DNA of 64,000 bases from Escherichia phage vB_vPM_PD114. Position 1 is the stretch's first letter, and each line of letters begins with the position of its first letter. The notes beneath the pieces were generated by a model. It worked only from the letters and a program-made list of their open reading frames with translations, was not told the origin of the DNA and ran no database searches. Below are positions 21,729 to 49,471 of the stretch, piece by piece. The DNA lies in sequence record MH675927.1; one strand, 5' to 3'. A program made the position numbers and the translations under genes.

Positions 21729-22238
21729 TTAGCGATAGAATTGATGTTCTTTGTAGCGGTACACTAGAACCATATCTTTTTCCCAGTGTGCTCTTATTGT
21801 AGATTTTTTAAAGTATAATGCTCCTTTAGTAATATCTAGTGCAATTCGTAGTTCTGGAAAATGGTCATCGAGATAAAGCAGACGTTCTGCTATAGCCTTA
21901 GCTTCCTTCCACTTATCGTGTTCCATAACGTTGAATGTCTTTGTGTAAGAGAATTGTCCTTTTTGAAACAAAACTTCTTTTATAGTATCAGGGAAATATG
22001 AATCTCTCGCCCTATTCAATACTACATTACCAACAGCAGACATACCGCGCTTTCCTTGATTACGACTTTCTGCATAGATTGCACAAGCTAATAGATTTTC
22101 TTTACTATCACGCTTTGTACACTTGTGAACTACTTTAGCAGTTTTTACGTTTGCAGCTTCGGCTTGCGCCACAACAGGTGTAAATGTAAAAGCAGTTAAG
22201 GATAGTAACGCAATTGCGACAAAGGTTTTTATTGACAA
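21729..22238 (-). CDS. secreted cell-wall hydrolase, SleB/Hydrolase_2-like
   Basis: N-terminal signal peptide (IALLSLTAFTFTPVVAQA); CAIYAESRNQG...GMSAVGNVVLNRAR matches the SleB-type cell wall hydrolase signature. Confidence 0.6.
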   Translation of the reverse strand: MSIKTFVAIALLSLTAFTFTPVVAQAEAANVKTAKVVHKCTKRDSKENLLACAIYAESRNQGKRGMSAVGNVVLNRARDSYFPDTIKEVLFQKGQFSYTKTFNVMEHDKWKEAKAIAERLLYLDDHFPELRIALDITKGALYFKKSTIRAHWEKDMVLVYRYKEHQFYR

Positions 22239-22961: not shown

Positions 22962-22981
22962 ATGCGCCCCGAAGGGCGCTA
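22962..22981 (-). other. intergenic stem-loop (GCGCCC-CGAA-GGGCGC)
   Basis: GC hairpin between TerD stop and the next gene start. Confidence 0.3.
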
Positions 22982-23000: not shown

Positions 23001-23597
23001 TTACTCGAACCAATCGTCGCCAGCGCCAAACGCTTTAACTACATCGTAAATATCAAGCCCAGCTTTACCTACACCATATGCTTTCAGTTTCCATTCACTA
23101 TCTTCCCGTACCAGGGAGGCAACGTGGCAAATGGTGTTACCTGCAAGTTCTGGAGCCAAGAAATCAAAGTCCAGCAGTTCAACATTACGTTCATCATCGA
23201 AGATTTTAAGGAAACCTTCGGTAGCATGACCAAGGCGTTTCTTACCCGTTTCGTCATCAATAGTAATTACGAATGCAATTTCCTGTGCTTCAGCAGAGAT
23301 ATTATCCAGTGTAACATCAATCTGCTCCATTTGTCCTACACCGTCACGAACATCTTCACCTGCAAAAGTAGAACGTTCAGGATCAAATTTCTGTGCGTAG
23401 CATACCAGGTGGCGAGGAGACAACAGTTCCGGCAGACCAGATGCATTGTGTCGGCAAATCAGAGCACTAACATCCAGATCCAGTTTTTCGTTAGATTTCC
23501 AAGAGAATTCCAGACGAATACGTTTCAGTGCTGGTGCGATCTTTTTCAGAGAAACTTTTTCGCTAGAACCTTTTTTCAGGGAAATTTTCTGAGTCAT
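23001..23597 (-). CDS. TerD-domain protein (tellurium-resistance TerD/TerZ family)
   Basis: N-terminal ISLKKGSSEKVSLKK and C-terminal ...WKLKAYGVGKAGLDIYDVVKAFGAGDDWFE follow the TerD pattern (acidic core, C-terminal W-K-F-x-A-x-G-x-G); RBS AAGGAGA. Confidence 0.75.
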   Translation of the reverse strand: MTQKISLKKGSSEKVSLKKIAPALKRIRLEFSWKSNEKLDLDVSALICRHNASGLPELLSPRHLVCYAQKFDPERSTFAGEDVRDGVGQMEQIDVTLDNISAEAQEIAFVITIDDETGKKRLGHATEGFLKIFDDERNVELLDFDFLAPELAGNTICHVASLVREDSEWKLKAYGVGKAGLDIYDVVKAFGAGDDWFE

Positions 23598-23670
23598 AAT
23601 TTATTATCTCCTTTGTTGTTAATTTACGTTGTCTATTTTACTAATCTTTTCTACAAAGTCAAGCGTTTTT

Positions 23671-24465
23671 TTACGCTTTTGCTCCGAATTTTTTAACCCA
23701 CTCGCCAAACTCTTCGGATAACAGTTTATCGTAGAGTTCTTCATCAGACAAGGACAAATCTGCAATACCGATAAAATCAACATTATCGTATTCTTTTGCC
23801 AAGTCTTTCAGGAATTTAAAGTTTGCATTACCTACACCAACCATAAACCAGTAAACAGGCGTATTGCGGTGTTTGTTCAGTAAGCTACGTACTGCTGAAG
23901 TATCCATGTTCTCCCCGTCAGTTTGGAAGAAAATCATTGCAGGAGTACGATCAACTTGTGCATCAGTATCTACAACCTGTTCTACAACAGTACGTGTTAC
24001 TTCTACAAGTTCTTTTTTACCAGTTAATTTAGCAAGGAAACCCTTAGCCGGAACTTCTTCATACTCAACGACTTCGCGTGTAATATTTTTCATAGGTACA
24101 CTACCGAAGTATGTATCATAGATCTCTTGCATTACTGGAGCATAAGCAGTACCACCGTTGATGCAAACATTAGACATGCAAGAGCCGACATAATCATCAT
24201 ACACATCAGCCGTTGCAGGAGGCAGTTCAAAAGAAGAACTATTGAAAGCCCACATGTCAATCTGTGCATTGTCATCAAACTTCATACCAAACGGCAGCAG
24301 TTTACCTACAAAATCACTAACAGTGCCATCACGATACAGCTCACACATACTACCCGAAATATCTAAGGCGCTACCGACACGAAGAACAACATCGTTAATC
24401 TTTTTCTTACGCAGAGATACAGTAAGAGTTTCTTGACGTTTTTTAAGACTGATTTTATTGGACAT
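23671..24465 (-). CDS. von Willebrand factor A (vWA) domain protein, TerF/TerY-like
   Basis: MIDAS motif LDISGSM, downstream GGTAYAPV and IFFQTDGEN; short TerD-like N-terminal ISLKK segment; adjacent to TerD. Confidence 0.65.
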   Translation of the reverse strand: MSNKISLKKRQETLTVSLRKKKINDVVLRVGSALDISGSMCELYRDGTVSDFVGKLLPFGMKFDDNAQIDMWAFNSSSFELPPATADVYDDYVGSCMSNVCINGGTAYAPVMQEIYDTYFGSVPMKNITREVVEYEEVPAKGFLAKLTGKKELVEVTRTVVEQVVDTDAQVDRTPAMIFFQTDGENMDTSAVRSLLNKHRNTPVYWFMVGVGNANFKFLKDLAKEYDNVDFIGIADLSLSDEELYDKLLSEEFGEWVKKFGAKA

Positions 24466-24466
24466 A

Positions 24467-24736
24467 TTATTTCTCCTTTCTGAGTGTAATGTTAGTAACT
24501 TCTAAATCCACTTCTACCATTTCTGTATCATATGAAATACAGCTAAGTTGACCTCTTTGTGAACCGTTCAGACACATTGCTTGGTTTGTATTAACTTTAA
24601 TAAACACTAAGTTTCTGAACGTATCTAAACCAGAATCTTGATACGCAACATAATATACGAATGTATCACCTGCGTCAAGTTCTCCAAAACATTTAGGTTC
24701 ATCTGATTTATCGTCTTTGATATTAAATTTAAGCAC
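24467..24736 (-). CDS. hypothetical protein
   Basis: 89-aa ORF tightly packed in operon. Confidence 0.4.
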   Translation of the reverse strand: MLKFNIKDDKSDEPKCFGELDAGDTFVYYVAYQDSGLDTFRNLVFIKVNTNQAMCLNGSQRGQLSCISYDTEMVEVDLEVTNITLRKEK

Positions 24737-25292
24737 TGTCTTCTCCTTTACCTGCTCTCAAACCTAAATAGAAAGCCTCTCTGGTGATCTTTTGCAACTC
24801 GTTTAAAGAGATAGTTACAACTAAATCATCTTCAATTTCTAGCTTTGAGTCTTCTTCTGTCTCAATGCAAGTATTATGCACTTTGTGGTAAGGATTGTCA
24901 ACACGTTTAAATTTATTATTTTCAGTGCTGAAGAAGCAATCTGGATCTTCTTCTCCATCACCCCAGCCCTGGTTAGGGTCTTCTTCAGATCTTTCTGTTG
25001 GGATCTCACCTGTAAAGTGCTCTTCTAATACCATAGCGATACCATCTCCAAGATCGGAAGAGAACATCAAATTACAAACTTCTTCCCAAGGCGTAGACCA
25101 CTTAAAACTTTTACGATTGCCATGTTTATCTTCTTCGTTAGAGAAAACACTACCATAGCTATCATAATTGCCATACATCTCTTCAACAACTTTACCACCT
25201 TTCAAAAGAAATAGGTAGCAAGGAGAGCCATCGAAAGAGGTAGAAAGAGCAGCATTACCAGACTCTTTGCACAAGAAACTAAAACACCCCAT
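24729..25292 (-). CDS. hypothetical acidic protein
   Basis: 187-aa ORF. Confidence 0.4.
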   Translation of the reverse strand: MGCFSFLCKESGNAALSTSFDGSPCYLFLLKGGKVVEEMYGNYDSYGSVFSNEEDKHGNRKSFKWSTPWEEVCNLMFSSDLGDGIAMVLEEHFTGEIPTERSEEDPNQGWGDGEEDPDCFFSTENNKFKRVDNPYHKVHNTCIETEEDSKLEIEDDLVVTISLNELQKITREAFYLGLRAGKGEDSA

Positions 25293-25492
25293 TATACACC
25301 AGCCTTAAGATCAATTAAAGCCAAAGTTGTTTCAGAATGTGTTTGCTCGTCTACAGGTGCAGTCATATGATAGTACAAAAAGTCTTCGGCATCATACCAA
25401 TCTGACTCTTGACCTTGTTTCCAACCATCAATGAAAGCATCTTCCATAATGGTTTGTAATTCTTCACGAGTTAAGTGAATATCTTTATTCAT
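25292..25492 (-). CDS. hypothetical protein
   Basis: 66-aa ORF, abutting neighbours. Confidence 0.35.
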   Translation of the reverse strand: MNKDIHLTREELQTIMEDAFIDGWKQGQESDWYDAEDFLYYHMTAPVDEQTHSETTLALIDLKAGV

Positions 25493-25725
25493 TACACATT
25501 CTCCTCTTTTACCAATCCCATCGTTGAACTATCAAAACCATCTTTAGAAGAATAGGTATAGACAGAACGTAGTTCTCGCAGGACAGTAAACACATTAGGA
25601 TCATCTAACCAAGCATCCTGGAGGAGAACATAACGATCTTCATTGTCGTACTGGACAGCGATCATAGAACCAGACAGTTTGTAAATTTTAATATTCATAA
25701 TATATTTCTCCTTAAAGTAGACCAC
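25492..25725 (-). CDS. hypothetical protein
   Basis: 77-aa ORF. Confidence 0.35.
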   Translation of the reverse strand: MVYFKEKYIMNIKIYKLSGSMIAVQYDNEDRYVLLQDAWLDDPNVFTVLRELRSVYTYSSKDGFDSSTMGLVKEENV

Positions 25726-26815
25726 GTTTAACAGTTTGAATCATACCATCTTCAAGAGATTGTACTTCTTGAATGTAATCAATACGAGCAGCACGGGCTT
25801 CAGTGTTGATTCGGTTAGTTTCTTCCAACATTTTAACTAAGTTTTCTTGATCGCGACGTAATGTTTCAATATCCAATACTTGACGATTAGCAAGTTGCGT
25901 AGCTTCAATTTGGTTTTGTGCAGCCAGATCACTACCCATTGCAATAGCCGCATTAAATTCATTCAGTACATTGTTCTGTGTATCGGCTGCTTTCTTCTGG
26001 CGTAGACTTTCAATATACATAGAAAAGTTTGCAGAGTAAGCAGGAATAACATTATTCACAATATTACGGGCTGATCGCATCAAACTTGCAGATACTTTCT
26101 GCATACTTTGTACACGTGGCCCCATCTGAACACACAGTAAACGCAAGGCTTTCAGGTCTGCAATACGAATTTCAAGCAGATCCATAGTATCACGAGTACG
26201 TTGACGCTCTTCTACTTCATTTTCAGGTAGTGTATTAAGGCGAACTTCTTCTTTTTCATAAGTAGCTGTTAGAAGCTCTATATCCCTGTTTAAGCTAAGA
26301 GCATATTTTGCAATAGCCTCTTCTAAACGTTGCAGATATCGTAAAGAATCTTCTTCTTTTTTCAAGTCTGTTTGGAGTGTCTTTACCAAACCTTCAATAC
26401 GATTATTGATGGTGTCAAATTCACCAAACAAATCTTCTTTCATACCTAATACTTTCTTAACTAGTTTACCTAAGCCTTTAGATTGTTTAATAGAGTTAGG
26501 ATCAAGTTGCTTTGCTTGCTTAATAAGTGCAGTTAAACGTTCACTCATTTCATCTCCCTGGGATGAACGCTGGTGTTTAAGCACTTCAGCATTAAGGTTA
26601 CGAAGAGTAAGTCCTGCATCAGCACCAACCTGTTCAATCTCTTCACGAGACATTGGAGGCAGCATTTGTACAGGTCGTGCAACAGCAGGGGCATATACAG
26701 GGCTTGCATCCATAGCACTTGGAGCAAACAAAGACTTACTTTTTTCTGTTGTTGCCGTGAATACACTCATTTCAGACGGTTTGCTTTTTACGGCACTAAT
26801 AAAAGGACTGGACAT
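25712..26815 (-). CDS. TelA-like (toxic anion resistance / KlaB family) protein, tentative
   Basis: 367-aa, strongly coiled-coil protein of TelA-like size and composition; GGAGG RBS; sits among TerD/vWA/TerC genes. Confidence 0.5.
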   Translation of the reverse strand: MSSPFISAVKSKPSEMSVFTATTEKSKSLFAPSAMDASPVYAPAVARPVQMLPPMSREEIEQVGADAGLTLRNLNAEVLKHQRSSQGDEMSERLTALIKQAKQLDPNSIKQSKGLGKLVKKVLGMKEDLFGEFDTINNRIEGLVKTLQTDLKKEEDSLRYLQRLEEAIAKYALSLNRDIELLTATYEKEEVRLNTLPENEVEERQRTRDTMDLLEIRIADLKALRLLCVQMGPRVQSMQKVSASLMRSARNIVNNVIPAYSANFSMYIESLRQKKAADTQNNVLNEFNAAIAMGSDLAAQNQIEATQLANRQVLDIETLRRDQENLVKMLEETNRINTEARAARIDYIQEVQSLEDGMIQTVKRGLL

Positions 26816-26883
26816 TCAATTTCCTCCATATTCTTTAGTAGATGGTGATACCTCTGTACCACCATCATAACACAAATTAAGTA

Positions 26884-27735
26884 TTAAACAAACATATCTA
26901 AATAATTTGTAGTAATAAATGCTCCATCTGCTTCCAGATTAACATAACCAGTAGCATTAGTGGTTAAGAAATCCAGATCGAAGGACTCTTTAACACCCCG
27001 TACCTCAACACGAGAGATATCGAATACAGGTAGTGTAACAGCCTCTTCGTGCAATACCGTACCTTTGTAGGTTGCCTTAATGATAAACTTGATATTACCC
27101 GTTCCCGCATCATACAAAACACTTTCAAAGCCTTTGAGAGTATACTTATCACCAGAGGTGAAGTGCAAAGTTGCTTTGTTTACAGTACGTTTTTTACGAG
27201 GAGTTCCTTTCACACGTTTATGATCACTACGTTTTTTGTATTTAGGAATGAATACAAACGATACACTCTCAAGAAAAGTATCAACATCAAGGATTTTAAT
27301 ATCCTCTGTTTCAGCAAATTTTGAAGTCGTTGCATCAAAATGCTTTGCCCTGCGATCATACATAAAGATATCAAACCGATCTTCTAAATCAAACAAATTG
27401 TGTATCTTAATTTCAGAATGCTTGCACATTGCAGCAACCTTAAACTCTTCAAAACGTGGGTGTTCTACAAGCTCTTCAAGTTTTACACCAAAGACAGTAT
27501 ATTGTTTCGAAGTTTTTTCTGGCGTTGGCATTACAGAAGCATAATCACCGATTGCGCTTTTAAAGCAAAATTGTTCTTGACCTGTATTTTTACCAACGAA
27601 TTTACAGTATTCGTCATCGTGCATACTTTCTTTGGTAGTACCAACAAACTCAAAACCATCTTTATTCTTCTCAAGAATTTCTTGATTAAAGATCAAACCT
27701 TCCAGGCGATACACTTTACCAACTTCTAGTTTCAT
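26884..27735 (-). CDS. hypothetical protein
   Basis: 283-aa ORF; no motif recognised. Confidence 0.45.
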   Translation of the reverse strand: MKLEVGKVYRLEGLIFNQEILEKNKDGFEFVGTTKESMHDDEYCKFVGKNTGQEQFCFKSAIGDYASVMPTPEKTSKQYTVFGVKLEELVEHPRFEEFKVAAMCKHSEIKIHNLFDLEDRFDIFMYDRRAKHFDATTSKFAETEDIKILDVDTFLESVSFVFIPKYKKRSDHKRVKGTPRKKRTVNKATLHFTSGDKYTLKGFESVLYDAGTGNIKFIIKATYKGTVLHEEAVTLPVFDISRVEVRGVKESFDLDFLTTNATGYVNLEADGAFITTNYLDMFV

Positions 27736-27770
27736 CTGTTTCTCCTTCTTATTTAATCTGTATTAAATTA

Positions 27771-28361
27771 TTAACGACGACGTGAGCTACTAAAACTACG
27801 TTTCGACGAAGAATAACTTTTCGAAGACTTACTATAAGAGCTAATAGGGCTTGAGTAAGACTTACGAGCAGAGTAATCACTATTCACTTTTGTTGTTGAT
27901 GGGCGTGAATACGTTTGTACACTTTGCTGCTTAATTGTGTTTTGTTTAGTGGTTGTATATGTATTCCCTTGTTTATCATAAAAACTATGCTTTTGTGTTG
28001 TATATGCTTTACTATTAGTTGTAGGAGCAGCGTTGTTATTGATAATTGTTGTATTGCTACCGCCATCTCTATAACCACCACCGCCACTATTACCACTCAA
28101 CATATGACCAAGAAGCATACCTGTAGCAAACTCACCTACGCCAGAAGAACCACTGCCGCCTCCTTGCACAACAACTGTTGAAGGTTGTGCAGGTGCTGCT
28201 TGAACAACTTGAGGTGCAGGTTGATTTACATATTGTTCATCTACCATCTGATTTGGTGTTTGTTGGTAACGTTGGTTTTGTACACTTTCAGAATCATCAC
28301 AACCTACCAGCAATGCACTGCCTAAAACAACTGCAACAATAAAAGATTTAATGTTTTTCAT
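27771..28361 (-). CDS. lipoprotein with Gly/Ser-rich low-complexity region
   Basis: Start at ATG 28361 (RBS GAGGG); signal peptide ending in lipobox LLVGC; GGGSGSSG and S/Y/K-rich tail. Confidence 0.5.
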   Translation of the reverse strand: MKNIKSFIVAVVLGSALLVGCDDSESVQNQRYQQTPNQMVDEQYVNQPAPQVVQAAPAQPSTVVVQGGGSGSSGVGEFATGMLLGHMLSGNSGGGGYRDGGSNTTIINNNAAPTTNSKAYTTQKHSFYDKQGNTYTTTKQNTIKQQSVQTYSRPSTTKVNSDYSARKSYSSPISSYSKSSKSYSSSKRSFSSSRRR

Positions 28362-28554
28362 CTGTAACCCTCTCATTTAAAGTCTCGACACAATTTTTAA
28401 AATCTCTAGAGAAACAATACATCTGTTCTCCGTTCCTGTTGATAGTAATTGTATGGTTATCAACATATGTTGTCAAGATAAAAATCAAACAAAATAACCC
28501 TAAAGCAAAACAAATATTTTCAAACAGAATCCAAAGAACACGTAAAACCACCAT
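28348..28554 (-). CDS. small membrane protein
   Basis: 68 aa with one hydrophobic helix. Confidence 0.3.
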   Translation of the reverse strand: MVVLRVLWILFENICFALGLFCLIFILTTYVDNHTITINRNGEQMYCFSRDFKNCVETLNERVTDEKH

Positions 28555-28565
28555 CAGATCACCTC

Positions 28566-28590
28566 AATAAAGCCCCCGAAGGGGCTTAAT
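28566..28590 (-). terminator. rho-independent terminator after the TerC gene
   Basis: AGCCCC-CGAA-GGGGCT hairpin followed on the minus strand by TTATTGAGG. Confidence 0.5.
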
Positions 28591-28593
28591 GAA

Positions 28594-29571
28594 TTAAGCA
28601 ACAGCCTGGTCTTCTTTTTCAGGGAAGATTAAACTTGCAATAACACCCAGCCCCAGAGTACCTAACACAATATACATACTGATCGTCGGATCAATGTGTG
28701 CTGGCAGGAAACTCACTTTTGCGTGCAGAGTTTCTGCAAACGGGTGATACATCAGTTTTACACCCACAAATACCAGGACTACGATAACTGCTTTCTCCAG
28801 ATGAACCAAATATTTCAGTGCAACACTAAGGACAAAGAACAGAGCACGTAGACCTAAAATTGCACACAGCATTGAAGAAAATACAAGCAGAGGTTCTTGT
28901 GTCACTGCAATTACTGCTGGAACAGAGTCTACTGCAAAGATTACGTCAACCATTTCCATTACAAACACACAAACCAATGCAGGAGTTGCTACACGAACAC
29001 CATTTTTGATTGTGAAGAACTTCTCACCATCCATCTGATCAGATACAGGGAACAGCTTACGAACAATGCGAGTAGCCCAATGTTTAGAGTAATCAACTTC
29101 TGCGTCATTATCTCCAGCAAATACCATTTTAGCTGCACAGAAAAGGATGACCGCACCGAAGAAGATATTAACATACCAGCCCAAACTCAACAAGTAAGTA
29201 CCTACTGCTACAAACACACCTCGGAAGACAATCGCACCTGCAATACCCCAAAGTAGAATCTTATGCTGCAAGTGTGTGCTTTTAATACCAAAACTTGCGA
29301 ATACTGCCACAAATACTACTAAGTTATCTACAGAAAGAGATTTCTCCAACACATACCCACTCAAGAACAAGCTCGCAAAATCAGCACCGTGTTGGAAGTA
29401 TACAAAACCATAGTAGGCTAACGATACCCCAATCCAGAAGATTGACCAGCCAATTGCAGATTTAAATGAAATTTCTTTGTTTTCTCTGTGTCCAAAGAAA
29501 TCAATACAAATCGACAAGACTAAAATACCCACTAAAACAACCACATCAATAATTGGGAAACCCAGTTGCAT
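28594..29571 (-). CDS. TerC-family integral membrane protein
   Basis: Multiple TM helices; hallmark EKSLSVDNLVVFVAVF and second repeat DVIFAVDSVPAVIAV (TerC/Alx signature). Confidence 0.8.
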   Translation of the reverse strand: MQLGFPIIDVVVLVGILVLSICIDFFGHRENKEISFKSAIGWSIFWIGVSLAYYGFVYFQHGADFASLFLSGYVLEKSLSVDNLVVFVAVFASFGIKSTHLQHKILLWGIAGAIVFRGVFVAVGTYLLSLGWYVNIFFGAVILFCAAKMVFAGDNDAEVDYSKHWATRIVRKLFPVSDQMDGEKFFTIKNGVRVATPALVCVFVMEMVDVIFAVDSVPAVIAVTQEPLLVFSSMLCAILGLRALFFVLSVALKYLVHLEKAVIVVLVFVGVKLMYHPFAETLHAKVSFLPAHIDPTISMYIVLGTLGLGVIASLIFPEKEDQAVA

Positions 29572-29589
29572 TCTTTTCTCCTCTTTAAT

Positions 29590-29608
29590 GCGGAGGACAA
29601 TCCTCCGC
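29590..29608 (-). other. intergenic stem-loop (GCGGAGGA-CAA-TCCTCCGC)
   Basis: 8-bp GC stem immediately upstream of the TerC RBS. Confidence 0.3.
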
Positions 29609-29648
29609 TCTATGTCGTATACTATAAACTGTTTTTAAAGAAAGTCAA

Positions 29649-29897
29649 CTAGTTCAGTTCTGTAATTTTAAGTTTATCTTCTTTGTTAATGATAGGGAAA
29701 GCTACAGCATCACCTACATCATCAATAAAGCAAATAGCAAGACCACCTTCCACTTTGCTAACCTGACCATTAAAGGCGTGATACGGGGTAGGAACAATAT
29801 CTCCATCTTCAAGGAGAATAGCCTCATAAACCTTACCAACAGTACAATCACGAGTGTTTATAAATTTTTCAAGCACTTCAACATTTACTTTACGCAT
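29649..29897 (-). CDS. hypothetical protein
   Basis: 82-aa ORF. Confidence 0.4.
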   Translation of the reverse strand: MRKVNVEVLEKFINTRDCTVGKVYEAILLEDGDIVPTPYHAFNGQVSKVEGGLAICFIDDVGDAVAFPIINKEDKLKITELN

Positions 29898-29911
29898 ATA
29901 AAGATCCTCTC

Positions 29912-30118
29912 TTATTTGTTAGATTGAAAGATACCACGAAGTACCGCAAGAATGAACGTCACACAGACTACACTCCAAAACGTTACAGGAACATGATGCC
30001 AGTCTAAGCCGATAATGTCAATCATATAGTTGTATGCTAAAAGCAGTAGCCAACTAGGGATTAACACAATCAAGAACACAACAATAAAACAACCTAATAC
30101 TGCTAAAACACCTGCCAT
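29912..30118 (-). CDS. small membrane protein (two TM helices)
   Basis: 68 aa, hydrophobic. Confidence 0.4.
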   Translation of the reverse strand: MAGVLAVLGCFIVVFLIVLIPSWLLLLAYNYMIDIIGLDWHHVPVTFWSVVCVTFILAVLRGIFQSNK

Positions 30119-30127
30119 ACTTTCTCC

Positions 30128-30844
30128 TTATTTCAGTTTGTAAACAATTACATTTAAACCTTTGTTCACTAGAGTTTCTTCGATCATAAGTTTTACAATA
30201 TTCCAAGAACCTCCAGCCAAACCACAACCAAGCATTGGTAAACCTACAATTTTACCGCCTGAAGATACAACATCGTCTCCCATACTATCTAACGCATTGT
30301 AGATAGCTTCATAATTCAGGTCACGCTTACCTTCCTCACGACGACTATAACCATATTGTCCATATAAATTATAAATTGTCAAATTGTTTTCTGTATACTT
30401 AGTAAACGTACCTAATTTTTTATAATCACCACGTTTAGTGGCACAATCTGCTTTAAACGCACCAGGCCACTTGCTTTTAATTTTTGGTGCAATACCACTA
30501 CCCATAGTGCAAAAACAGTTACAGCAGTGTGCTATAGCGTCTATATCGCCTCTCTCGGCTGCTGCTAAAAGATCACCGTATACCTCAATGATACCTGCTG
30601 GATAACTTGTTACAATTTCATCTTCCCAGTACATTTGCTCTACACCACCGATTAGTGCAAAGTTTTGTGTAATGCGATCATCAATATAATTAAGACCTGA
30701 AACATACACAGCATATTCATCCTGTGCTGTAATGCCTTGTACACGAATTCTTAAGACACCATCTTTATCTGTTGCTACACGCCCAAAATCTTTTTCTGTA
30801 ATACTGGTGATAGGATCTCCGAAAGTCGTCACTTTATTAGACAT
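30128..30844 (-). CDS. Macro-domain protein (ADP-ribose binding/processing) with N-terminal extension
   Basis: Start at ATG 30844 (RBS AAAGGGGA); C-terminal half GDIDAIAHCCNCFCTMGSGIAPKIK ... GLPMLGCGLAGGSW matches macro-domain blocks. Confidence 0.6.
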   Translation of the reverse strand: MSNKVTTFGDPITSITEKDFGRVATDKDGVLRIRVQGITAQDEYAVYVSGLNYIDDRITQNFALIGGVEQMYWEDEIVTSYPAGIIEVYGDLLAAAERGDIDAIAHCCNCFCTMGSGIAPKIKSKWPGAFKADCATKRGDYKKLGTFTKYTENNLTIYNLYGQYGYSRREEGKRDLNYEAIYNALDSMGDDVVSSGGKIVGLPMLGCGLAGGSWNIVKLMIEETLVNKGLNVIVYKLK

Positions 30845-31694
30845 AATAATCCCCTTTAACATTAGATTTGTTGATAATGTTGCTTTCAAAAAATTGATGC
30901 AGGAAATCAAAGTTCTCTTTGTATTTTTCAATATTATTGTAACCTTCTGCAAGGCAACCAAAGAACAGTTGTTCTACATAATACAAAGGAAGTTGTGAAA
31001 GTGCAATTTTAAAATCAACTTCGCTTTGACTCATTAGATACTTAATAGGACGAACCAAACATTTAGCATCAGTTTCTTGCTTAATCATTTTAATAAAAGC
31101 TGCCAGGTTATTGATATAGTTGAAGTTAAGTGCAGCTTCGGTGTTGGCTTCTGTACCTTCATACTTTGCAAAGTACAGGAAAAACGTATCGTTTTCAACA
31201 CCTTCTTTGTCTAAAATTTCAATAAGTTTTTCTTCGTGTGTTCCTGTAATATTAACATCATCAATGAAAATCAGAGTTTTATTACCCCAGAAATCACGAT
31301 TGATAGAGAAAGTGTCACCATCGATCAAAGCCTTACGATCTTCTTTGCTAAGAAATCCATAATCATTGATATAACTCACTTTACGATGAACGATATCCCA
31401 CTCTACTGCTTTACCTCCTTTGATAGAGATTAGGTAGTTGAGGTGATCTACAAAATGTTCAGATAACACTGTAGCTGCATTTTTCACATAGTTATATGGA
31501 GATGGAATAACAACAAAACTTTCATTTACTAGTCGTTCTTCATATTTAAAAAAGAAACTTTCAGCCAGAATGCGTCCCATTCTTTTTGCTGCCTGGTTAC
31601 TACCAAACTTTAGTTTGGAATAATCTGCAATGTTAAATTTTGCTTCCTTCAGGTTAGTAAAAGTATTAGCAAAATGTTGAATTTGATTACGCAT
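30837..31694 (-). CDS. phosphoribosyltransferase (type I PRTase) domain protein
   Basis: PRPP-binding motif TLIFIDDVNITGTHEEK (hydrophobic-DD-hydrophobic-x-TG-T); RBS GAGG; overlaps the HAD stop by 8 nt. Confidence 0.6.
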   Translation of the reverse strand: MRNQIQHFANTFTNLKEAKFNIADYSKLKFGSNQAAKRMGRILAESFFFKYEERLVNESFVVIPSPYNYVKNAATVLSEHFVDHLNYLISIKGGKAVEWDIVHRKVSYINDYGFLSKEDRKALIDGDTFSINRDFWGNKTLIFIDDVNITGTHEEKLIEILDKEGVENDTFFLYFAKYEGTEANTEAALNFNYINNLAAFIKMIKQETDAKCLVRPIKYLMSQSEVDFKIALSQLPLYYVEQLFFGCLAEGYNNIEKYKENFDFLHQFFESNIINKSNVKGDYYV

Positions 31695-32343
31695 TAATAA
31701 GTTCCTCTTTTTTAAGTTTAGCCAACAAGTCTTCTGGATTAATAATATGACAGAACTTCATCCCTATGTCAACAGCTTTTCCATCATAAATCAAACTATC
31801 CCCAACGTGTAAAATCTCCTCTGGTGCGAGATCAAACGTTACCATTTCATCAAAAGAGAGTTTAAAAAACCTAGGATCTGGTTTACACAAGCAAAACTCA
31901 TCAGAAAAATGCATAAAGTCAAATGGTAATTTTGTTAAGCCAGAATATACAGCTAAGAAACTACCTGGTACAAAATTAGTATTGCTCTTAATACTCAAAG
32001 AATAGGTTGAACTTAGCTCTTCCAACTTCTTGCAAAGCTCAGGGTTCAATATTGGAGGATGTTTTATAAACATTGCTAAACAGTCTCTTTTTAACCCATC
32101 CACTTTATCAAGATCAATGTTGAAACGAGTAGAAAGTGTTTCCCAAGCGTTCCTAGACGTTCCACAAATGCCTTTTTCTGCTTTTAAATCCAGGAGAGTT
32201 TTTACCTCTTTATATACGGTAGCTGCTTCTGCCTCAGAACAAGAGGCATACTCGGCAATAACCTTGTTGCGTTCTTCTGCATACAAAGGATTAGCAGTAA
32301 TAAGAGTATTCCATACATCAAAAGAAATATGCTTAACAGTCAT
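31687..32343 (-). CDS. HAD-superfamily hydrolase (phosphatase-like)
   Basis: Start at ATG 32343 (RBS GGAGG); motif I ISFDVWNTL and motif IV HVGDSLIYD (GDxxxD). Confidence 0.55.
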   Translation of the reverse strand: MTVKHISFDVWNTLITANPLYAEERNKVIAEYASCSEAEAATVYKEVKTLLDLKAEKGICGTSRNAWETLSTRFNIDLDKVDGLKRDCLAMFIKHPPILNPELCKKLEELSSTYSLSIKSNTNFVPGSFLAVYSGLTKLPFDFMHFSDEFCLCKPDPRFFKLSFDEMVTFDLAPEEILHVGDSLIYDGKAVDIGMKFCHIINPEDLLAKLKKEELINA

Positions 32344-32345
32344 TT

Positions 32346-32501
32346 TTAATCCTCCGTCCAAAAGAATATCATCTGCTTAATTTTATTGATCTCTTGATGT
32401 AGTAACTTTCCAGCATGTGATTGATCTTTAATATTGACAGCAAGAATTTCAAGCTCCGTTAGTTTTTCCTGGATAGCTTTATATTCATCATCTGTAAGCA
32501 T
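32346..32501 (-). CDS. small hypothetical coiled-coil protein (not in supplied ORF track)
   Basis: ATG 32501 with RBS AAGGGG; 51 codons; fills the gap before the HAD gene. Confidence 0.3.
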   Translation of the reverse strand: MLTDDEYKAIQEKLTELEILAVNIKDQSHAGKLLHQEINKIKQMIFFWTED

Positions 32502-32721: not shown

Positions 32722-32747
32722 TAAAGGAGGCTTTCGCCTCCTTTTAT
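32722..32747. terminator. rho-independent terminator (GGAGGC-TTTC-GCCTCC)
   Basis: Hairpin with T-tracts on both strands; downstream of the AAA ATPase gene on the minus strand. Confidence 0.5.
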
Positions 32748-32750: not shown

Positions 32751-33911
32751 TTAGTAAGAACGACCACCAAACACATACTCTGTGTAGTTTTTACGTTCTT
32801 TGTTTTTAATAACAACTTCAATGTTGTTACCTTTATCATCGGTGAACATAAAGTGATAGCCGTCACCACCCATTGTACGAATGTGTTTTTCATCATACGT
32901 TAGCAAGATACGGTCTACACCCCAGTAGTAGTCACCTTCTTCATCTTTATCTTCTACGGTAACAATCCCTTCCATTTCAGGAAGATGCTCTTCTCCTGAC
33001 TTATGATCTACAGCTACAACATAACGATTACCGCTAAACAAACCTTGTGCTGTCATACCGTCAATATCGGTATCTGACGAAACATCTCCTGTACGATCTA
33101 CACCGTTAACTTTCAGAAGTTTAACTTCTTTTGCAGCATAGCCGTGTTCAGTAATACTGATACCCATTAATGCAAGTGCATCAGAGAATTTGTCATTAGG
33201 ATAACGGTTAAGTTCTTCTACTAATGACTGAACAATATCAAAGTTCAAATCCACGGAGAGATTATAAAGCGTTTCAAAATCTGGTAAGAAGGCTTTGTTC
33301 TCCAGATTTTTAGCCAGATAATCATCCATAGTAGCTTTAGGTAGTTTCTTATAGCTAAAACTGTAGAAAATACGGCTAGGACGATTACGCAAAAATTCTG
33401 ATACATAACCATCATTTTTAGTCAATACAAACAGCTTGTCATAACCACCAACACCATCCAGCAGGGTAAGCAAACCATCTTGTGCATCTTTTTCAGCATA
33501 CAGTTTATCAAATTCATCGATCATAATCATCACAGGTTGTGTGATTTTAGACATAAAATTGATAAAGCCTTCACCATTAAAAGCACTACCGATAGAAATA
33601 GTAGGAATACCCATTTCACGAAGAGCAGAAGACAGCATTTTAGCTTGCAAAGTTTTACCGCTACCTTTCGTACCCTCAAGGAGAACACCTGTGTTTTTAC
33701 CTTTGCGGCTAAGGAACGTCTTGATAATACGTTCTGATTTATCATCAGTATCACCGTATGTTACTGAAGGGACTTCCATATCATTTTTAGGATACAGGAA
33801 GAACTCGCCACTTTGAGTAACACCTACACCAAAAGTTCCTGCTGGAATTTCTTCAATATCTGTACCAGACTTCTGACGCAGGAAGATTTGATTGCCGAAT
33901 ACTGTAAACAT
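32751..33911 (-). CDS. AAA-type ATPase, paralog A
   Basis: Walker A GTKGSGKT, Walker B IMIDEFDK, sensor-like RPSRIFY; paralog of 49472-50599 with a divergent C-terminal half. Confidence 0.65.
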   Translation of the reverse strand: MFTVFGNQIFLRQKSGTDIEEIPAGTFGVGVTQSGEFFLYPKNDMEVPSVTYGDTDDKSERIIKTFLSRKGKNTGVLLEGTKGSGKTLQAKMLSSALREMGIPTISIGSAFNGEGFINFMSKITQPVMIMIDEFDKLYAEKDAQDGLLTLLDGVGGYDKLFVLTKNDGYVSEFLRNRPSRIFYSFSYKKLPKATMDDYLAKNLENKAFLPDFETLYNLSVDLNFDIVQSLVEELNRYPNDKFSDALALMGISITEHGYAAKEVKLLKVNGVDRTGDVSSDTDIDGMTAQGLFSGNRYVVAVDHKSGEEHLPEMEGIVTVEDKDEEGDYYWGVDRILLTYDEKHIRTMGGDGYHFMFTDDKGNNIEVVIKNKERKNYTEYVFGGRSY

Positions 33912-33931: not shown

Positions 33932-34402
33932 TTAGTCAGATTCCCAAATGTTGTCTTTCTTAACCCACATTCGTTGATTATCTGAACCTCTATAACGTTT
34001 CGTTGTTGGTTGATTCATATCATACTTACCATCTATCACTATGTCAACCAGTTTTTTAATTTTCTCTGGAATTTCTTCAAAAAGATATCCTGTATATAAG
34101 ACAATATCTTTTTTGTTTCCAAAACAATCTCTTACCTTCTCAAGAACATACTCTACAGTGTCAATGTTCTCTTTGTCAAGAGGTTCACCACCTAAAACTG
34201 TTAATCCTTTAATGAAAGGTCGAGATAAATCTTCCAAGATAAGATCTAATGTTTCAGCAGTGAACTCTTGTCCGTAATTATACGACCAGGCTTTCTGGTT
34301 AAAGCAGCCACGGCAACCGTGGCTACAACCGCTCACCCACAAAGAGCATCTTACACCGTCACCGTTGAGCATGTCAACAGGTTCATATCCGGCGTAATTC
34401 AA
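33932..34402 (-). CDS. nrdG: anaerobic ribonucleotide reductase activating protein NrdG (radical SAM)
   Basis: MNYAGYEPVDMLNGDGVRCSLWVSGCSHGCRGCFNQ follows the NrdG N-terminus including the CxxxCxxC radical-SAM cluster; TTG start; 4-nt overlap with nrdD stop. Confidence 0.85.
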   Translation of the reverse strand: MNYAGYEPVDMLNGDGVRCSLWVSGCSHGCRGCFNQKAWSYNYGQEFTAETLDLILEDLSRPFIKGLTVLGGEPLDKENIDTVEYVLEKVRDCFGNKKDIVLYTGYLFEEIPEKIKKLVDIVIDGKYDMNQPTTKRYRGSDNQRMWVKKDNIWESD

Positions 34403-35340
34403 AAATGTTTCTCCCTTTCTAGTACCTCTTGCATTTTACCTTTATTATAAGGGCGAGAGTTAGGAGCAGAAAGGTATCCTGACACTCTTCTGATCACAGA
34501 TATGGATTCTTCTTCATGATTACCGCAACTTGGACACTCGAAGCCTTTAGCCGTTGCTTTAAACTCACCATGAAAACCACATTTGAAACACTGATCTACA
34601 GGTTGGTTCACGCCAAAATAAGGAATTTTGTTGTAGGCATAATCTACAAGAGTTTCCAGTGCTTGCAAGTTATTTTTAAGGTTTGGTGTTTCTACATAAC
34701 CTATGTTCCCACCGTTACTAATTTGTGCAAAACCTTCCTCATAATCCCACTTTTGGAACGGGGTAGTGTGCATCCATACAGGTTGATGGAAAGAGTTTGT
34801 CAAGTAGTCACGATCAATAGAACCAGGATAGCGATCATTTAATGCTTTGGCAAATTTATAGCACAAGGATTCTGCTGGTGTTCCATACAAACTAAAAGCT
34901 AAACCAGAACGTTCTTTAAATGTGCCACAGATATCCTTCATATATTGAAGGATGTTTTTACCCATTGCTTTTGGATTGGTGTTACCTGGGTATAAAATCT
35001 CCATAGCTTCTGCTAAACCTACATAACCGATACTAATAGAGGCATAACCACCTTCGAATAGTTTACCAATCTCTTCATTAGCTTCTAGTCGAGCTAAAGC
35101 CCCTTCCATAAACAATGTAGGGTTTTGAGATGCTTTGGTATGTCTAATACGGTTAACACGTAGCATATGTGCCTTATACGCCATCTCCATATGTTGTTCC
35201 AACAGTTCAGTAAATAAGATGCCCTTTTCACGGGACTCTGCTGCAATGATAGGTAAGTTTAAAGAAACTACGCCTAAGTTGAAACGACCATCATATTTTT
35301 CACCTTGCTCTGTTGCATAGTATGACAAGAAACTTCTACA
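34399..35340 (-). CDS. nrdD: anaerobic ribonucleotide reductase NrdD, exon 2
   Basis: C-terminal zinc ribbon CFKCGFHG...CPSCG and glycyl-radical motif RRVSGYL; exon starts TGT AGA (CRSFLSYY) right after the predicted 3-prime splice site. Confidence 0.8.
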   Translation of the reverse strand, partial: CRSFLSYYATEQGEKYDGRFNLGVVSLNLPIIAAESREKGILFTELLEQHMEMAYKAHMLRVNRIRHTKASQNPTLFMEGALARLEANEEIGKLFEGGYASISIGYVGLAEAMEILYPGNTNPKAMGKNILQYMKDICGTFKERSGLAFSLYGTPAESLCYKFAKALNDRYPGSIDRDYLTNSFHQPVWMHTTPFQKWDYEEGFAQISNGGNIGYVETPNLKNNLQALETLVDYAYNKIPYFGVNQPVDQCFKCGFHGEFKATAKGFECPSCGNHEEESISVIRRVSGYLSAPNSRPYNKGKMQEVLEREKHF

Positions 35341-35619
35341 CATTATGTTCAAAGTGGCTCGCAAGGCCACTCCCGCACCATTACGTGCTGCTGCATGTCA
35401 CCATGCAGATCAGACTATATCTTCATGCTTAAAGCATGTCTACCATTTGGGGTGTCATAGGCTTACACCCTACGCTGCTACATTCATCACAGCTAGTCGT
35501 TAGGCATTTCGTAATAGTACCCCCTTCTTCTGTGTTGGGAGTTCTGTTACGTTTAGCACGGGATTGTCTCGTTGAGAGTTCCCCCGTTTAGGCAGATTTT
35601 ACATGAGCAGTTATAGTTT
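35341..35619 (-). ncRNA. group I self-splicing intron (td-like, no internal ORF) interrupting nrdD
   Basis: 279 nt between the two nrdD reading frames; core-like TAAACGGGGGAACTCTCAACGAGACAATCCCGTGCTAAAC and P7 3-prime element AAGATATAGTC; CTGCATG-GTGA-CATGCAG hairpin near the 3-prime end; ends GAACATAATG; exon 1 ends ...ATGGGT. Confidence 0.75.
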
Positions 35620-36477
35620 ACCCATGCTTGTGACGCGACCATCTGAAGATCCTGTAACTTCTTTGTTTAAAGGTACAGAGATAAAATCAGGATAAATGCG
35701 TTCAGCACAACACTCCATTGCCAGTTGCTTCAAATCATAGTTTGGATCGCCAGCTTTCATGTTAACACCATCTTCCAAGAAGAAGATAACTTTAGGAAAC
35801 ACAGGAGTTACCCTATCTTTTCCTAATCCTTGTTTGTGCACCATTAGGTAGTTTTTAGTGATCATTCTACCAAAAGCAGAGGTATCCAAACCTAAACTAA
35901 TTGTTATAAAAGGTGACTGACCATTTACACTCATTAGAGTGTTCACCTGGTAGATTAAAGTTTGCATTGCATCATAGACCTGTTTATCTACCATACGCAT
36001 AGCAATATCATAATCGCCAACATCGGCATATATTTTATTAAAACTTGCTTTAACGTATTGACTAAGCCCAGTATCAACATGTGCACAAGTTTGTCCACCA
36101 TATTGGCTAGAGGCTACTGCTTGAATAATTTGAGTTAGGACAGTAGTTGCTACACCGATAGATTTTGGTTTTTCAATATGTGCATTACCAATACGGAAAC
36201 CGTTCTCAAGCATATCTTGGTAATTTACCAGGCAACAATTAGTTAGAGGTGAGAGTAAATAATCTAAATCGTGAATGTGACCATACCCGCTTTTATGCCA
36301 TTCTGCCAGATCTTCCGGTAAAATATGGGTCATTGCCATGTGCTTGCTCAGAATACCTGCTAGTAAGTCTCGGTGAGTATTAACAATCATTGCAGGTTTG
36401 TTTGCATTTTCACGAGTAAATTCTTCGGATGTTTGTTCGAGGAATCCGATTACATCCTCATATAGTTTTTGGGTCAT
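35620..36477 (-). CDS. nrdD: anaerobic ribonucleotide reductase NrdD, exon 1
   Basis: Start ATG 36477 (RBS GGAGG); reading frame stops 9 nt into the intron; splicing predicted to join ...RVTSMG to CRSFLSYY..., giving a 599-aa product. Confidence 0.8.
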
Positions 36478-36494
36478 TAATCCTCCGTGGAAAA

Positions 36495-36520
36495 TAAAAG
36501 CCAGCATTAAGCTGGCTTTA
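36495..36520 (-). terminator. rho-independent terminator
   Basis: AAAGCCAGC-TTAATG-CTGGCTTT hairpin followed on the minus strand by TATTTTCC; between 36567-37517 and nrdD. Confidence 0.5.
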
Positions 36521-49460: not shown

Positions 49461-49471
49461 AAGGGGTTAAA

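What the first reader, a model, noticed from the sequence alone, without database searches (positions are those of the whole stretch)
23001..32343. Ter-family gene neighbourhood (TerD, vWA, TelA-like, TerC) next to PRTase, HAD and Macro genes in a phage
Within about 9 kb on one strand are a TerD-domain protein (23001-23597), a vWA protein with MIDAS motif (23671-24465), a TelA-like coiled-coil protein (25712-26815), a TerC membrane protein with the SLSVDNL and FAVDSVPAV hallmarks (28594-29571), a lipoprotein, and then a Macro / type I phosphoribosyltransferase / HAD hydrolase operon (30128-32343). The same domain combination has been described in bacterial Ter-dependent stress-response loci predicted to make a nucleoside-like metabolite. 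Seeing it inside a lytic phage replication region suggests the phage carries a compact version of that pathway, possibly to alter host membrane or metal stress physiology or to make or degrade a nucleotide-derived signal. This is my best candidate for the undescribed system.
Basis: partly seen in the sequence, partly recalled or inferred. Interest (0 to 1): 0.8.

Follow-up and report, generated by a model that had tools for sequence, protein, structure and literature searches.

The report
Phage-borne Ter stress-system gene cassette
A phi92-like E. coli phage carries a compact, selectively maintained copy of the bacterial "Ter" membrane-stress gene set plus a two-enzyme nucleotide-making module; such phage Ter cassettes are already described in the literature, but nobody has tested what they do.

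Summary
On the minus strand between 32343 and 23001 lie HAD, PRTase_3, Macro, TerC, a lipoprotein, TelA, vWA-TerF-like and TerD genes. All have strong profile matches except HAD, which scores just below Pfam's cut-off.

The window is a Stephanstirmvirinae coliphage, 99% identical to published genomes. Several of those genomes already label these genes tellurite resistance, TerC, PRTase, macrodomain and HAD.

HAD followed by PRTase_3, usually overlapping, is the fixed core. In 9 of 18 unrelated phage or plasmid loci this pair sits next to TerD, vWA-TerF, TelA or TerC. The set is therefore a real, recurrent cassette, and it is under purifying selection (pN/pS 0–0.09 for the six core genes).

Macro adjacency is specific to this lineage, and the AAA gene upstream is not part of the unit. 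TerB, ATP-grasp and the TerY-P triad are absent.

Iyer, Anantharaman and Aravind (2021) already described phage Ter systems with PRTase and HAD and proposed superinfection exclusion. The "undescribed system" claim therefore fails.

The one fresh detail is that the HAD family replaces the catalytic Asp+2 with an invariant Trp.

Verdict: a new member of a known kind, function still untested, moderate interest.

The parts
31687..32343 (-). HAD-superfamily hydrolase (an alternative TTG start lies at 32361). First gene of the invariant HAD-PRTase pair; overlaps the PRTase gene by 8 nt.
   Evidence: Pfam Hydrolase 2e-5; NCBIfam HAD-IA families. A 22-sequence family alignment shows the nucleophile Asp, SN(T), KP and GDxxxxD motifs kept, but Asp+2 replaced by Trp. 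pN/pS 0.09.
30837..31694 (-). Type I phosphoribosyltransferase of the Ter-associated PRTase_3 (ComF-like) family.
   Evidence: Pfam PF15610 6e-41. The PRPP loop FIDDVxITGTHE is invariant in 17 diverse homologues. 306 relatives found, mostly on phage-sized contigs. pN/pS 0.05.
30128..30862 (-). Macrodomain protein: N-terminal extension of about 90 aa plus a SCO6735/BT1257-type macro domain. A lineage-specific neighbour of the pair.
   Evidence: Pfam Macro 3e-7. PDB 5e3b, 2fg1 and TARG1 at 1e-15 to 1e-10. Partial DarG match at 6e-13, far below the cut-off. ESCO5 has a 157-aa version.
29912..30118 (-). 68-aa small hydrophobic (membrane) protein.
   Evidence: Two hydrophobic stretches in the translation. 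Conserved in ESCO5, L007, L008 and L010.
29649..29897 (-). 82-aa protein of unknown function.
   Evidence: No Pfam hit. Conserved only in close relatives.
29621..29648 (-). Sigma-70-like promoter candidate in the 77-nt gap before TerC.
   Evidence: TTGACT-16-TATAGT. The number of such sites in the region is not above shuffled controls, so this is suggestive only.
28594..29571 (-). TerC/Alx-family integral membrane protein.
   Evidence: Pfam TerC 1e-38. TIGR03718 323 bits, above the cut-off. 46-47% identity over the full length to plasmid terC of terZABCDEF loci. No riboswitch upstream.
28348..28554 (-). 68-aa small hydrophobic protein.
   Evidence: Translation; weak DUF6693 match; conserved across the subfamily.
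27771..28376 (-). Predicted inner-membrane lipoprotein with a low-complexity Q/S/G-rich body.
   Evidence: Lipobox LVGC followed by Asp-Asp; the same GCDD motif is in L007, L008 and L013. PHROG 21570.
26884..27735 (-). 283-aa protein of unknown function: variable N-terminus, basic linker, conserved C-terminal domain of about 110 aa.
   Evidence: Only 2 database homologues. Alignment with subfamily relatives. AlphaFold model failed, pLDDT 32.
25712..26815 (-). TelA-family protein.
   Evidence: Pfam TelA 5e-34. PHROG 5890 'tellurite resistance' 1e-136. Homologues in 244 phage records. pN/pS 0.03.
24467..25725 (-). Four small or unknown ORFs (77, 66, 187 and 89 aa), tightly packed between TelA and vWA. 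The 187-aa protein belongs to a widespread phage family that is not Ter-specific.
   Evidence: No Pfam hits. Gene gaps of -14 to +1 nt. Homologues of the 187-aa protein occur in phage contigs without Ter genes.
23671..24465 (-). Stand-alone vWA domain of the TerF C-terminal type, with an intact MIDAS motif.
   Evidence: Pfam vWA-TerF-like 1e-38. DISGS, GGT and TDGE motifs in the translation. No non-synonymous differences against PaulScherrer, with 18 synonymous.
23635..23662 (-). Sigma-70-like promoter candidate in the 73-nt gap before TerD.
   Evidence: TTGACT-16-TAAAAT; suggestive only.
23001..23597 (-). Single TerD-domain protein.
   Evidence: Pfam TerD 5e-28. Klebsiella TerD 2KXV 9e-15. 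The Ca2+-loop GDNxTGEGDGDDE aligns to GEDVRDGVGQME, so three acidic ligands are lost.
22964..22979 (.). GC-rich palindromic hairpin directly after TerD; likely the 3' end of the unit.
   Evidence: GCGCCC-TTCG-GGGCGC followed by A/T-rich sequence.
32723..32744 (-). Terminator-like hairpin between the upstream AAA gene and the block; marks the 5' boundary.
   Evidence: 9-bp stem plus a T-rich tail. The AAA gene is absent at this position in ESCO5.

Best explanation
This is a phage-borne Ter cassette of the kind defined computationally by Anantharaman, Iyer and Aravind. It is inherited vertically in Stephanstirmvirinae and sits among replication and nucleotide-metabolism genes. Shown: six core genes (HAD, PRTase_3, TerC, TelA, vWA-TerF-like, TerD) are intact, selectively constrained and recurrently linked in unrelated phages and on one bacterial plasmid. 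Inferred mechanism: the translationally coupled HAD-PRTase_3 pair uses PRPP to make a small ribonucleotide or nucleoside-like compound. TerD (a ligand/Ca2+-binding fold), the MIDAS vWA protein and TelA assemble at the inner membrane around the TerC metal-translocating protein. They act together with lineage-specific small membrane proteins and an inner-membrane lipoprotein. In bacteria, terC and terD are needed for phage inhibition and colicin resistance. By analogy, the likely benefit to the phage is protection of the infected cell's envelope until lysis, meaning exclusion of superinfecting phages and of pore-forming toxins. Tellurite resistance is not the likely benefit. The Macro gene is most likely a separate ADP-ribose-removing (counter-defence) gene that happens to sit next to the pair in this lineage.
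For: Domain identities. Window is 99% identical to phi92-like phages over 9.4 kb. The block is syntenic in Phapecoctavirus ESCO5 at 65-79% protein identity. pN/pS 0-0.09 for the six core genes. HAD is the upstream neighbour of PRTase_3 in 17 of 18 unrelated loci. Ter genes lie within 10 kb in 9 of those 18, including the near-contiguous cassette TelA-vWA-TerC-x-x-HAD-PRT-TerD in a 146-kb phage contig, and a classical TerD/vWA/PP2C/kinase/DUF475 locus on a Hymenobacter plasmid. The PRPP loop and MIDAS motif are intact. TerC is 47% identical to plasmid TerC. Envelope theme: TerC, two small hydrophobic proteins and a GCDD lipoprotein. Literature: the published prediction for phages (PMC7824862); terC/terD/terZ needed for phage inhibition and colicin resistance, and a Klebsiella terC deletion lowers phage, Zn and Mn resistance (PMC12054061).
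Against: There are no experimental data for any phage Ter gene. The HAD lacks the Asp+2 general acid/base, so the simple 'PRTase then nucleotidase' scheme is uncertain. The TerD Ca2+ loop is partly degenerate. In half of the unrelated loci the HAD-PRTase pair stands without Ter genes nearby; in T4-like jumbo contigs it lies among RNA-repair genes. The pair could therefore act independently. Promoter and terminator calls are not above shuffled background. Expression timing is unknown.
Confidence: 0.5

Rival explanations
1. Metal-homeostasis auxiliary module. TerC acts as a Mn2+/Zn2+ (possibly Ca2+) exporter or metalation factor, with TerD, vWA and TelA as metal-sensing accessories. It adjusts cytoplasmic or periplasmic metal supply for phage enzymes, for example the periplasmic SleB-like hydrolase encoded two genes downstream. 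It does not exclude competitors.
For: TerC matches the TerC/Alx 'metal homeostasis' subfamily above the cut-off. Klebsiella TerC confers Zn and Mn resistance, and TerC proteins metalate exoenzymes (PMC12054061 and the references it cites). TerD is a Ca2+-binding fold and the vWA has a MIDAS metal site. A SleB-type Hydrolase_2 gene lies near Ter genes here and in L013 and L027.
Against: This does not explain the tight link to HAD-PRTase_3. There is no Mn riboswitch upstream of TerC. Acidic ligands of the TerD Ca2+ loop are partly lost. The SleB neighbourhood may simply reflect shared ancestry of these phages.
Confidence: 0.2
2. Two unrelated modules sit side by side. The Ter membrane genes are one unit. 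HAD, PRTase_3 and Macro form a separate nucleotide-directed counter-defence or salvage unit, for example removing ADP-ribose marks and making or trapping a nucleotide that interferes with host immune signalling.
For: HAD-PRTase_3 occurs without Ter genes within 10 kb in 9 of 18 unrelated loci. It stands alone on Rhizobium plasmid pRL10 and lies among RNA ligase, CCA-adding enzyme, PTH2 and NUDIX genes in jumbo T4-like contigs. Macro resembles TARG1/DarG-clade ADP-ribosyl hydrolases. One related locus carries the anti-CBASS gene Acb3 nearby.
Against: In the other 9 loci the pair is embedded between TelA, TerC, vWA and TerD, often as direct neighbours, and it abuts a classical bacterial Ter locus. 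Macro adjacency is confined to one subfamily. No PADLOC or anti-defence model matches the PRTase or HAD.
Confidence: 0.2
3. A tellurite-resistance moron that protects the host from tellurite or other toxic oxyanions, as the GenBank labels suggest.
For: Annotation labels in related genomes. TerC and TerD are required components of bacterial tellurite resistance (PMC12054061).
Against: TerB and the TerZ/A/E paralogues are absent. The phage is virulent, so host survival in tellurite brings it no obvious gain. The same argument was made for PhiPsa374 (PMC9796965).
Confidence: 0.03
4. No system at all: a chance mosaic of accessory genes picked up independently.
For: Several interspersed ORFs are lineage-specific or unrelated to Ter; the 187-aa family occurs elsewhere without Ter genes. 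There are signs of recombination in the block: TerC is 94-95% identical in some Phapecoctavirus genomes against about 71% in most.
Against: The same six families are linked repeatedly in unrelated phages and on one plasmid. The block is conserved and syntenic across genera and under strong purifying selection.
Confidence: 0.04

Closest known systems
Phage-encoded Ter systems as described by Iyer, Anantharaman, Krishnan, Burroughs & Aravind 2021 (Viruses 13:63; Acinetobacter phage ME3, Caulobacter jumbo phages)
   Same: The same component list: PRTase plus HAD 'signal biosynthesis', TerD, TerC, TerF-type vWA and TelA. The PRTase_3 family here is also found in Caulobacter, Brevundimonas, Rhizobium and Xanthomonas jumbo phages.
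   Different: This is a roughly 146-kb non-jumbo myovirus lineage (Stephanstirmvirinae), not named in the text available to me. The cassette is stretched by lineage-specific ORFs: a Macro gene, two small membrane proteins, a GCDD lipoprotein, and the 283-aa and 187-aa proteins.
Bacterial Ter-dependent stress-response loci (Anantharaman, Iyer & Aravind 2012), e.g. the Hymenobacter monticola plasmid locus seen here
   Same: HAD-PRTase_3 next to TerD paralogues, vWA proteins and a TerC-like membrane protein.
   Different: The phage has one TerD, no TerY-type vWA/PP2C/kinase triad and no TerB. It adds TelA in the same block.
terZABCDEF tellurite/phage/colicin-resistance operon of IncHI2 plasmids, E. 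coli O157 and Klebsiella
   Same: TerC is 46-47% identical. A TerD domain and the vWA domain of TerF are present.
   Different: No TerB, TerZ, TerA or TerE. The gene order differs. The phage PRTase found no match on enterobacterial ter plasmids at E<=1e-3.
PhiPsa374-like Pseudomonas phages and Klebsiella phage PhiKp34 (terC-terD-terF-telA clusters)
   Same: The same four Ter membrane or sensor genes in virulent phages, with function stated as unknown.
   Different: Those descriptions do not mention a PRTase_3/HAD pair. TelA identity to the PhiPsa381 and similar homologues is only 20-23%.
SCO6735 / BT1257 / TARG1 macrodomains
   Same: The macro domain aligns end to end at E about 3e-15 and shares the GQ(H/Y)G and GCGLAGG motifs of SCO6735 and BT1257.
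   Different: It has an extra N-terminal extension of about 90 aa. The TARG1 catalytic Lys84 and Asp125 align to Gln and Ala.

Membership tests
Ter stress-response system (Anantharaman/Iyer/Aravind definition), phage-borne form | TerD-domain protein | tested here: met
   Pfam 5e-28; 2KXV 9e-15.
Ter stress-response system, phage-borne form | TerC-family membrane protein | tested here: met
   Pfam 1e-38; TIGR03718 above the cut-off; 47% identity to plasmid TerC.
Ter stress-response system, phage-borne form | TelA and TerF-type vWA (sub-membrane components) | tested here: met
   Pfam TelA 5e-34 and vWA-TerF-like 1e-38; MIDAS residues present.
Ter stress-response system, phage-borne form | Linked nucleoside-like-metabolite module (PRTase plus HAD phosphoesterase) | tested here: met
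   PRTase_3 6e-41. HAD is the upstream neighbour in 17 of 18 unrelated loci.
Ter stress-response system, phage-borne form | Recurrent gene-neighbourhood linkage of these families | tested here: met
   9 of 18 unrelated loci, including one bacterial plasmid.
Ter stress-response system, phage-borne form | TerB ligand-binding protein | tested here: not met
   No TerB match in any ORF of the block. TerB is optional in the published phage examples.
Ter stress-response system, phage-borne form | Phenotype: phage inhibition, colicin resistance or stress resistance | not testable with these tools
   Needs genetics. No published test in any phage was found.
terZABCDEF tellurite-resistance operon | terB plus several TerD paralogues (terZ, A, D, E, F) around terC | tested here: not met
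   One TerD gene, no TerB, no paralogues elsewhere in the window.
TerY-P defence system | TerY vWA plus PP2C phosphatase plus Ser/Thr kinase | tested here: not met
   No PADLOC hit for any Ter protein. No kinase or PP2C in the block.
Type I phosphoribosyltransferase | PRPP-binding loop (hydrophobic run, DD, hydrophobic, then TGxT) | tested here: met
   LIFIDDVNITGTHE, invariant in 17 homologues. The substrate base is unknown.
HAD phosphatase | Motif I DxDxT, with Asp+2 as general acid/base, plus motifs II-IV | tested here: inconclusive
   The nucleophile Asp and motifs II-IV are kept. Asp+2 is Trp in 21 of 22 sequences and Tyr in one. The Pfam score is 1 bit below the cut-off.
DarG antitoxin (DarTG) | Macro domain with catalytic Lys, C-terminal DarT-binding domain, adjacent darT | tested here: not met
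   49 bits against a 250-bit cut-off, covering only model positions 4-147 of 338. The TARG1-type catalytic Lys aligns to Gln. There is no DarT neighbour.
SCO6735/BT1257-type macrodomain | Full-length macro fold similarity with GQ(H/Y)G and GCGLAGG motifs | tested here: met
   E about 3e-15 to 5e3b, 2fg1 and 2afc; motifs shared in the alignments.

The most novel reading that the evidence does not exclude
The HAD-PRTase_3 pair, whose HAD is non-canonical (Trp in place of the Asp+2 general acid), makes a so-far unidentified PRPP-derived nucleotide or nucleoside. This compound would act as a virus-encoded second messenger. It would gate a TerC/TerD/TelA/vWA complex at the inner membrane, sealing the infected cell against superinfecting phages and pore-forming toxins. 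That would make this a phage-run signalling and envelope-protection system, and a tractable route (E. coli K-12 phages of the BASEL collection) to the long-unknown chemistry of Ter systems.
Probability: 0.2. Interest if true: 0.7.

Novelty: new member of a known kind. Interest (0 to 1): 0.35.

Why it matters
Ter loci are widespread in bacteria, plasmids and phages. They are linked to virulence and to phage, colicin and metal resistance, yet their biochemistry is unknown, above all the product of the PRTase/HAD module and what TerD senses.

This phage lineage infects E. coli K-12 (PaulScherrer, JohannJBalmer), which lacks a ter operon. It carries a minimal six-gene version of the system. That makes it a convenient background for identifying the metabolite and for testing the published superinfection-exclusion hypothesis.

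As a genome-scan finding it is not a new kind of system.

Tried and rejected
- **283-aa ORF (26884-27735).** Only two close homologues were found. The AlphaFold model was unusable (pLDDT 32), so no fold search was run. An alignment with subfamily relatives shows only a conserved C-terminal domain of about 110 aa.
- **afdb50 fold library.** Not available.
- **AAA ATPase (32751-33911).** Rejected as a partner of the vWA protein. It is separated from the block by a terminator-like hairpin and is missing at that position in ESCO5.
- **Riboswitch upstream of TerC.** Looked for a yybP-ykoY-type element; none found.
- **Defence-system models.** PADLOC matched only the Macro domain, weakly, to DarG.
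- **Enterobacterial origin of the PRTase.** tblastn against plasmids found none on enterobacterial ter plasmids.
- **Other conserved partner proteins.** The 290-390-aa unknowns next to TerD or TelA in other cassettes are not related to the 283-aa protein.
- **Literature.** Nothing on PF15610/PRTase_3. No paper co-mentions phi92 or phAPEC8 with Ter genes. The Anantharaman 2012 paper could not be opened, and the Iyer 2021 supplement is not held.

Full report
**What is there.**

All genes between 34400 and 21700 lie on the minus strand. Read in the direction of transcription, the block runs as follows:

| Coordinates | Gene |
|---|---|
| 32716-32513, 32501-32346 | two small ORFs |
| 32343-31687 | HAD |
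| 31694-30837 | PRTase |
| 30862-30128 | Macro |
| 30118-29912 | 68-aa hydrophobic protein |
| 29897-29649 | 82-aa ORF |
| 29571-28594 | TerC |
| 28554-28348 | 68-aa hydrophobic protein |
| 28376-27771 | lipoprotein |
| 27735-26884 | 283-aa ORF |
| 26815-25712 | TelA |
| 25725-24467 | four small ORFs |
| 24465-23671 | vWA |
| 23597-23001 | TerD |

E-values are TerD 5e-28, vWA-TerF-like 1e-38, TelA 5e-34, TerC 1e-38, PRTase_3 6e-41, Macro 3e-7 and HAD 2e-5.
- The HAD score is one bit below Pfam's cut-off. NCBIfam HAD-IA models also recognise it.
- TerC also passes the curated TerC/Alx model.
- Genes are tightly packed. Gaps of 64 nt or more occur only before TerC, before TelA, before TerD and after TerD.
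- A terminator-like hairpin follows the upstream AAA gene, and a GC-rich hairpin follows TerD.
- Promoter-like hexamers sit in the gaps before TerC and TerD. The number of such sites is no higher than in shuffled sequence, so the operon structure remains a suggestion.

**Where the window comes from.**

- The 9.4-kb block is 97.7-99.1% identical to the 30 best-matching phi92-like coliphages (EC.P2, ECGD1, PHB05, PaulScherrer and others), and 54 records cover at least 80% of it. PaulScherrer belongs to Stephanstirmvirinae, genus Justusliebigvirus.
- Several of these records already label the genes 'tellurite resistance', 'TerC', 'phosphoribosyltransferase', 'macrodomain' and 'HAD-like'.
- The sister genus Phapecoctavirus (ESCO5) has the same block in the same order between nrdG and a SleB-type hydrolase. 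Its PRTase is 65% and its TelA 78% identical at protein level.
- ESCO5 lacks the AAA gene at that position and has only a 157-aa Macro.
- Against PaulScherrer, pN/pS is 0-0.09 for TerD, vWA, TelA, TerC, PRTase and HAD, and at most 0.27 for every other gene compared (the 201-aa ORF downstream of TerD differs in length and was not compared). These are functional, constrained genes.

**What is the unit.**

- I fetched loci through the PRTase and mapped homologues of every window protein onto them.
- HAD is the upstream neighbour of PRTase_3 in 17 of 18 unrelated loci, and the two genes usually overlap. These loci include Rhizobium and Hymenobacter plasmids.
- In 9 of the 18, two or more of TerD, vWA-TerF, TelA and TerC lie within 10 kb, often as direct neighbours.
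  - The most compact case is a 146-kb phage contig with TelA-vWA-TerC-x-x-HAD-PRT-TerD.
  - The Hymenobacter plasmid places the pair next to three TerD genes, two vWA genes, a PP2C phosphatase, a kinase and a DUF475 membrane protein. That is a classical bacterial Ter locus.
- TelA and TerC occur in only 244 and 176 of 50,697 phage records, and about 130 of those are this subfamily. The linkage is therefore far beyond chance.
- In the other 9 loci the pair stands without Ter genes nearby. Examples are T4-like jumbo contigs, where it lies among RNA ligase, CCA-adding enzyme, PTH2 and NUDIX genes, and Rhizobium plasmid pRL10.
- Macro is adjacent to the pair only in Stephanstirmvirinae.

**State of the catalytic and binding sites.**

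- **PRTase.** The PRPP loop (LIFIDDVNITGTHE) is invariant across 17 homologues that are 44-82% identical to the window protein.
- **vWA.** The MIDAS residues are complete.
- **TerD.** It aligns along its full length with Klebsiella TerD. The Ca2+-binding loop GDNxTGEGDGDDE reads GEDVRDGVGQME, so three acidic ligands are lost.
- **HAD.** The family keeps the nucleophile Asp and motifs II-IV. Asp+2, the general acid/base of HAD phosphatases, is Trp in 21 of 22 sequences, including both bacterial ones, and Tyr in the remaining one. As far as I recall, a few HAD phosphatases also lack Asp+2. This does not exclude phosphatase activity, but the textbook 'PRTase then nucleotidase' scheme is not secure.
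- **Macro.** It groups with SCO6735, BT1257 and TARG1 (E 1e-15 to 1e-10). The TARG1 catalytic Lys and Asp align to Gln and Ala, as in SCO6735 and BT1257. Its DarG match is partial and far below the cut-off.

**What is absent.**

- No TerB, ATP-grasp, second PRTase, or kinase/PP2C was found.
- There are no Ter paralogues elsewhere in the window.
- The phage PRTase found no match on enterobacterial ter plasmids, although TerC is 46-47% identical to their TerC.
- The cassette therefore uses the PRTase_3/HAD module, not the biosynthetic cluster of the terZABCDEF plasmids.

**The unassigned ORFs.**

- The 283-aa protein has almost no homologues, and its model failed.
- The 187-aa protein belongs to a large, very conserved phage family without a Pfam entry (invariant MGCFSFxC, GNYDSYG, DPNQGWG).
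  - Its model is confident (pLDDT 84), but it matches no solved fold.
  - The family occurs in phages without Ter genes.
- Neither ORF is a recognisable Ter enzyme.
- The lipoprotein has a conserved Cys-Asp-Asp start of the mature chain. By the established Lol-avoidance rule this predicts retention in the inner membrane.

**Comparison with what is known.**

- Iyer et al. 2021 describe Ter systems in phages. Their components are PRTase plus HAD 'signal' biosynthesis, TerD/TerB sensors, TerC, and TelA plus TerF-vWA sub-membrane components. They propose a role in competition with superinfecting phages.
- PhiKp34 and PhiPsa374 are further published cases, and their authors state that the function is unknown.
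- In bacteria, terC, terD and terZ are needed for phage inhibition and colicin resistance. A Klebsiella terC deletion lowers resistance to Zn, Mn and phages.
- I found no paper that discusses the cassette in phi92/phAPEC8-like phages and none on PF15610.
- This is therefore a new member of a known kind, not an undescribed system.

**Most likely mechanism.**

This is inference, and I put its confidence at about 0.5.

- The coupled HAD-PRTase_3 pair makes a PRPP-derived small molecule.
- TerD, vWA and TelA act with TerC and lineage-specific envelope proteins at the inner membrane.
- Their effect is to keep the infected cell intact and closed to competitors until lysis.

The rivals are:

- a metal-homeostasis role centred on TerC (0.2);
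- two independent modules, with HAD, PRTase and Macro serving nucleotide-level counter-defence (0.2);
- tellurite resistance (0.03);
- a chance mosaic (0.04).

The experiments that would separate them are listed under next steps.

Noticed in passing
window 35391-35665 (minus strand), within nrdD (ORFs 34399-35370 and 35611-36507): A group I intron (Rfam RF00028, 72.5 bits against a gathering score of 50) interrupts the anaerobic ribonucleotide reductase gene. PaulScherrer has an uninterrupted 1830-bp nrdD.
   Followed up: partly
[not shown]
   Followed up: yes
window 31687-32343, and HAD genes of loci L002-L027: The Ter-associated HAD family has Trp (Tyr in one sequence) where HAD phosphatases have the Asp+2 general acid/base. 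All other catalytic motifs are kept. This also holds for the two bacterial plasmid copies.
   Followed up: partly
window 28594-29571, compared with Phapecoctavirus genomes: TerC of some Phapecoctavirus phages (P3322, phiWec188) is 94-95% identical to the window protein, while most members of that genus are about 71% identical. This suggests recombination of the block between genera.
   Followed up: no
window 27771-28376; L007 12975-13556; L008 6975-7538; L013 14020-14586: The lipoprotein has a conserved lipobox Cys followed by Asp-Asp(-Asp/Glu), the inner-membrane retention signal, and then a Q/P/S-rich low-complexity body.
   Followed up: partly
window 32751-33911 and 49433-50599: The 386-aa AAA ATPase upstream of the block has a paralogue on the plus strand about 16 kb away (phmmer 4e-77).
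   Followed up: no
GenBank MG065639, MG065645, MG065656, MG065689: Records named 'Campylobacter phage' with host C. jejuni are 98.4% identical to this coliphage block. The host label is probably wrong, or the phage came from a contaminating E. coli.
   Followed up: no
window 23001-23597 and 23671-24465: The TerD and vWA proteins begin with a similar peptide (M-x-x-K-I-S-L-K-K ... V-S-L-K/R-K). In the vWA protein it may be a remnant of the TerD domain that precedes this vWA in TerF.
   Followed up: no
window 21729-22238; L013 12208-12699; L027 6940-7431: A secreted SleB-type cell-wall hydrolase (Pfam Hydrolase_2, 6e-20) lies close to the Ter genes in this phage and in two distantly related phage contigs.
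   Followed up: no
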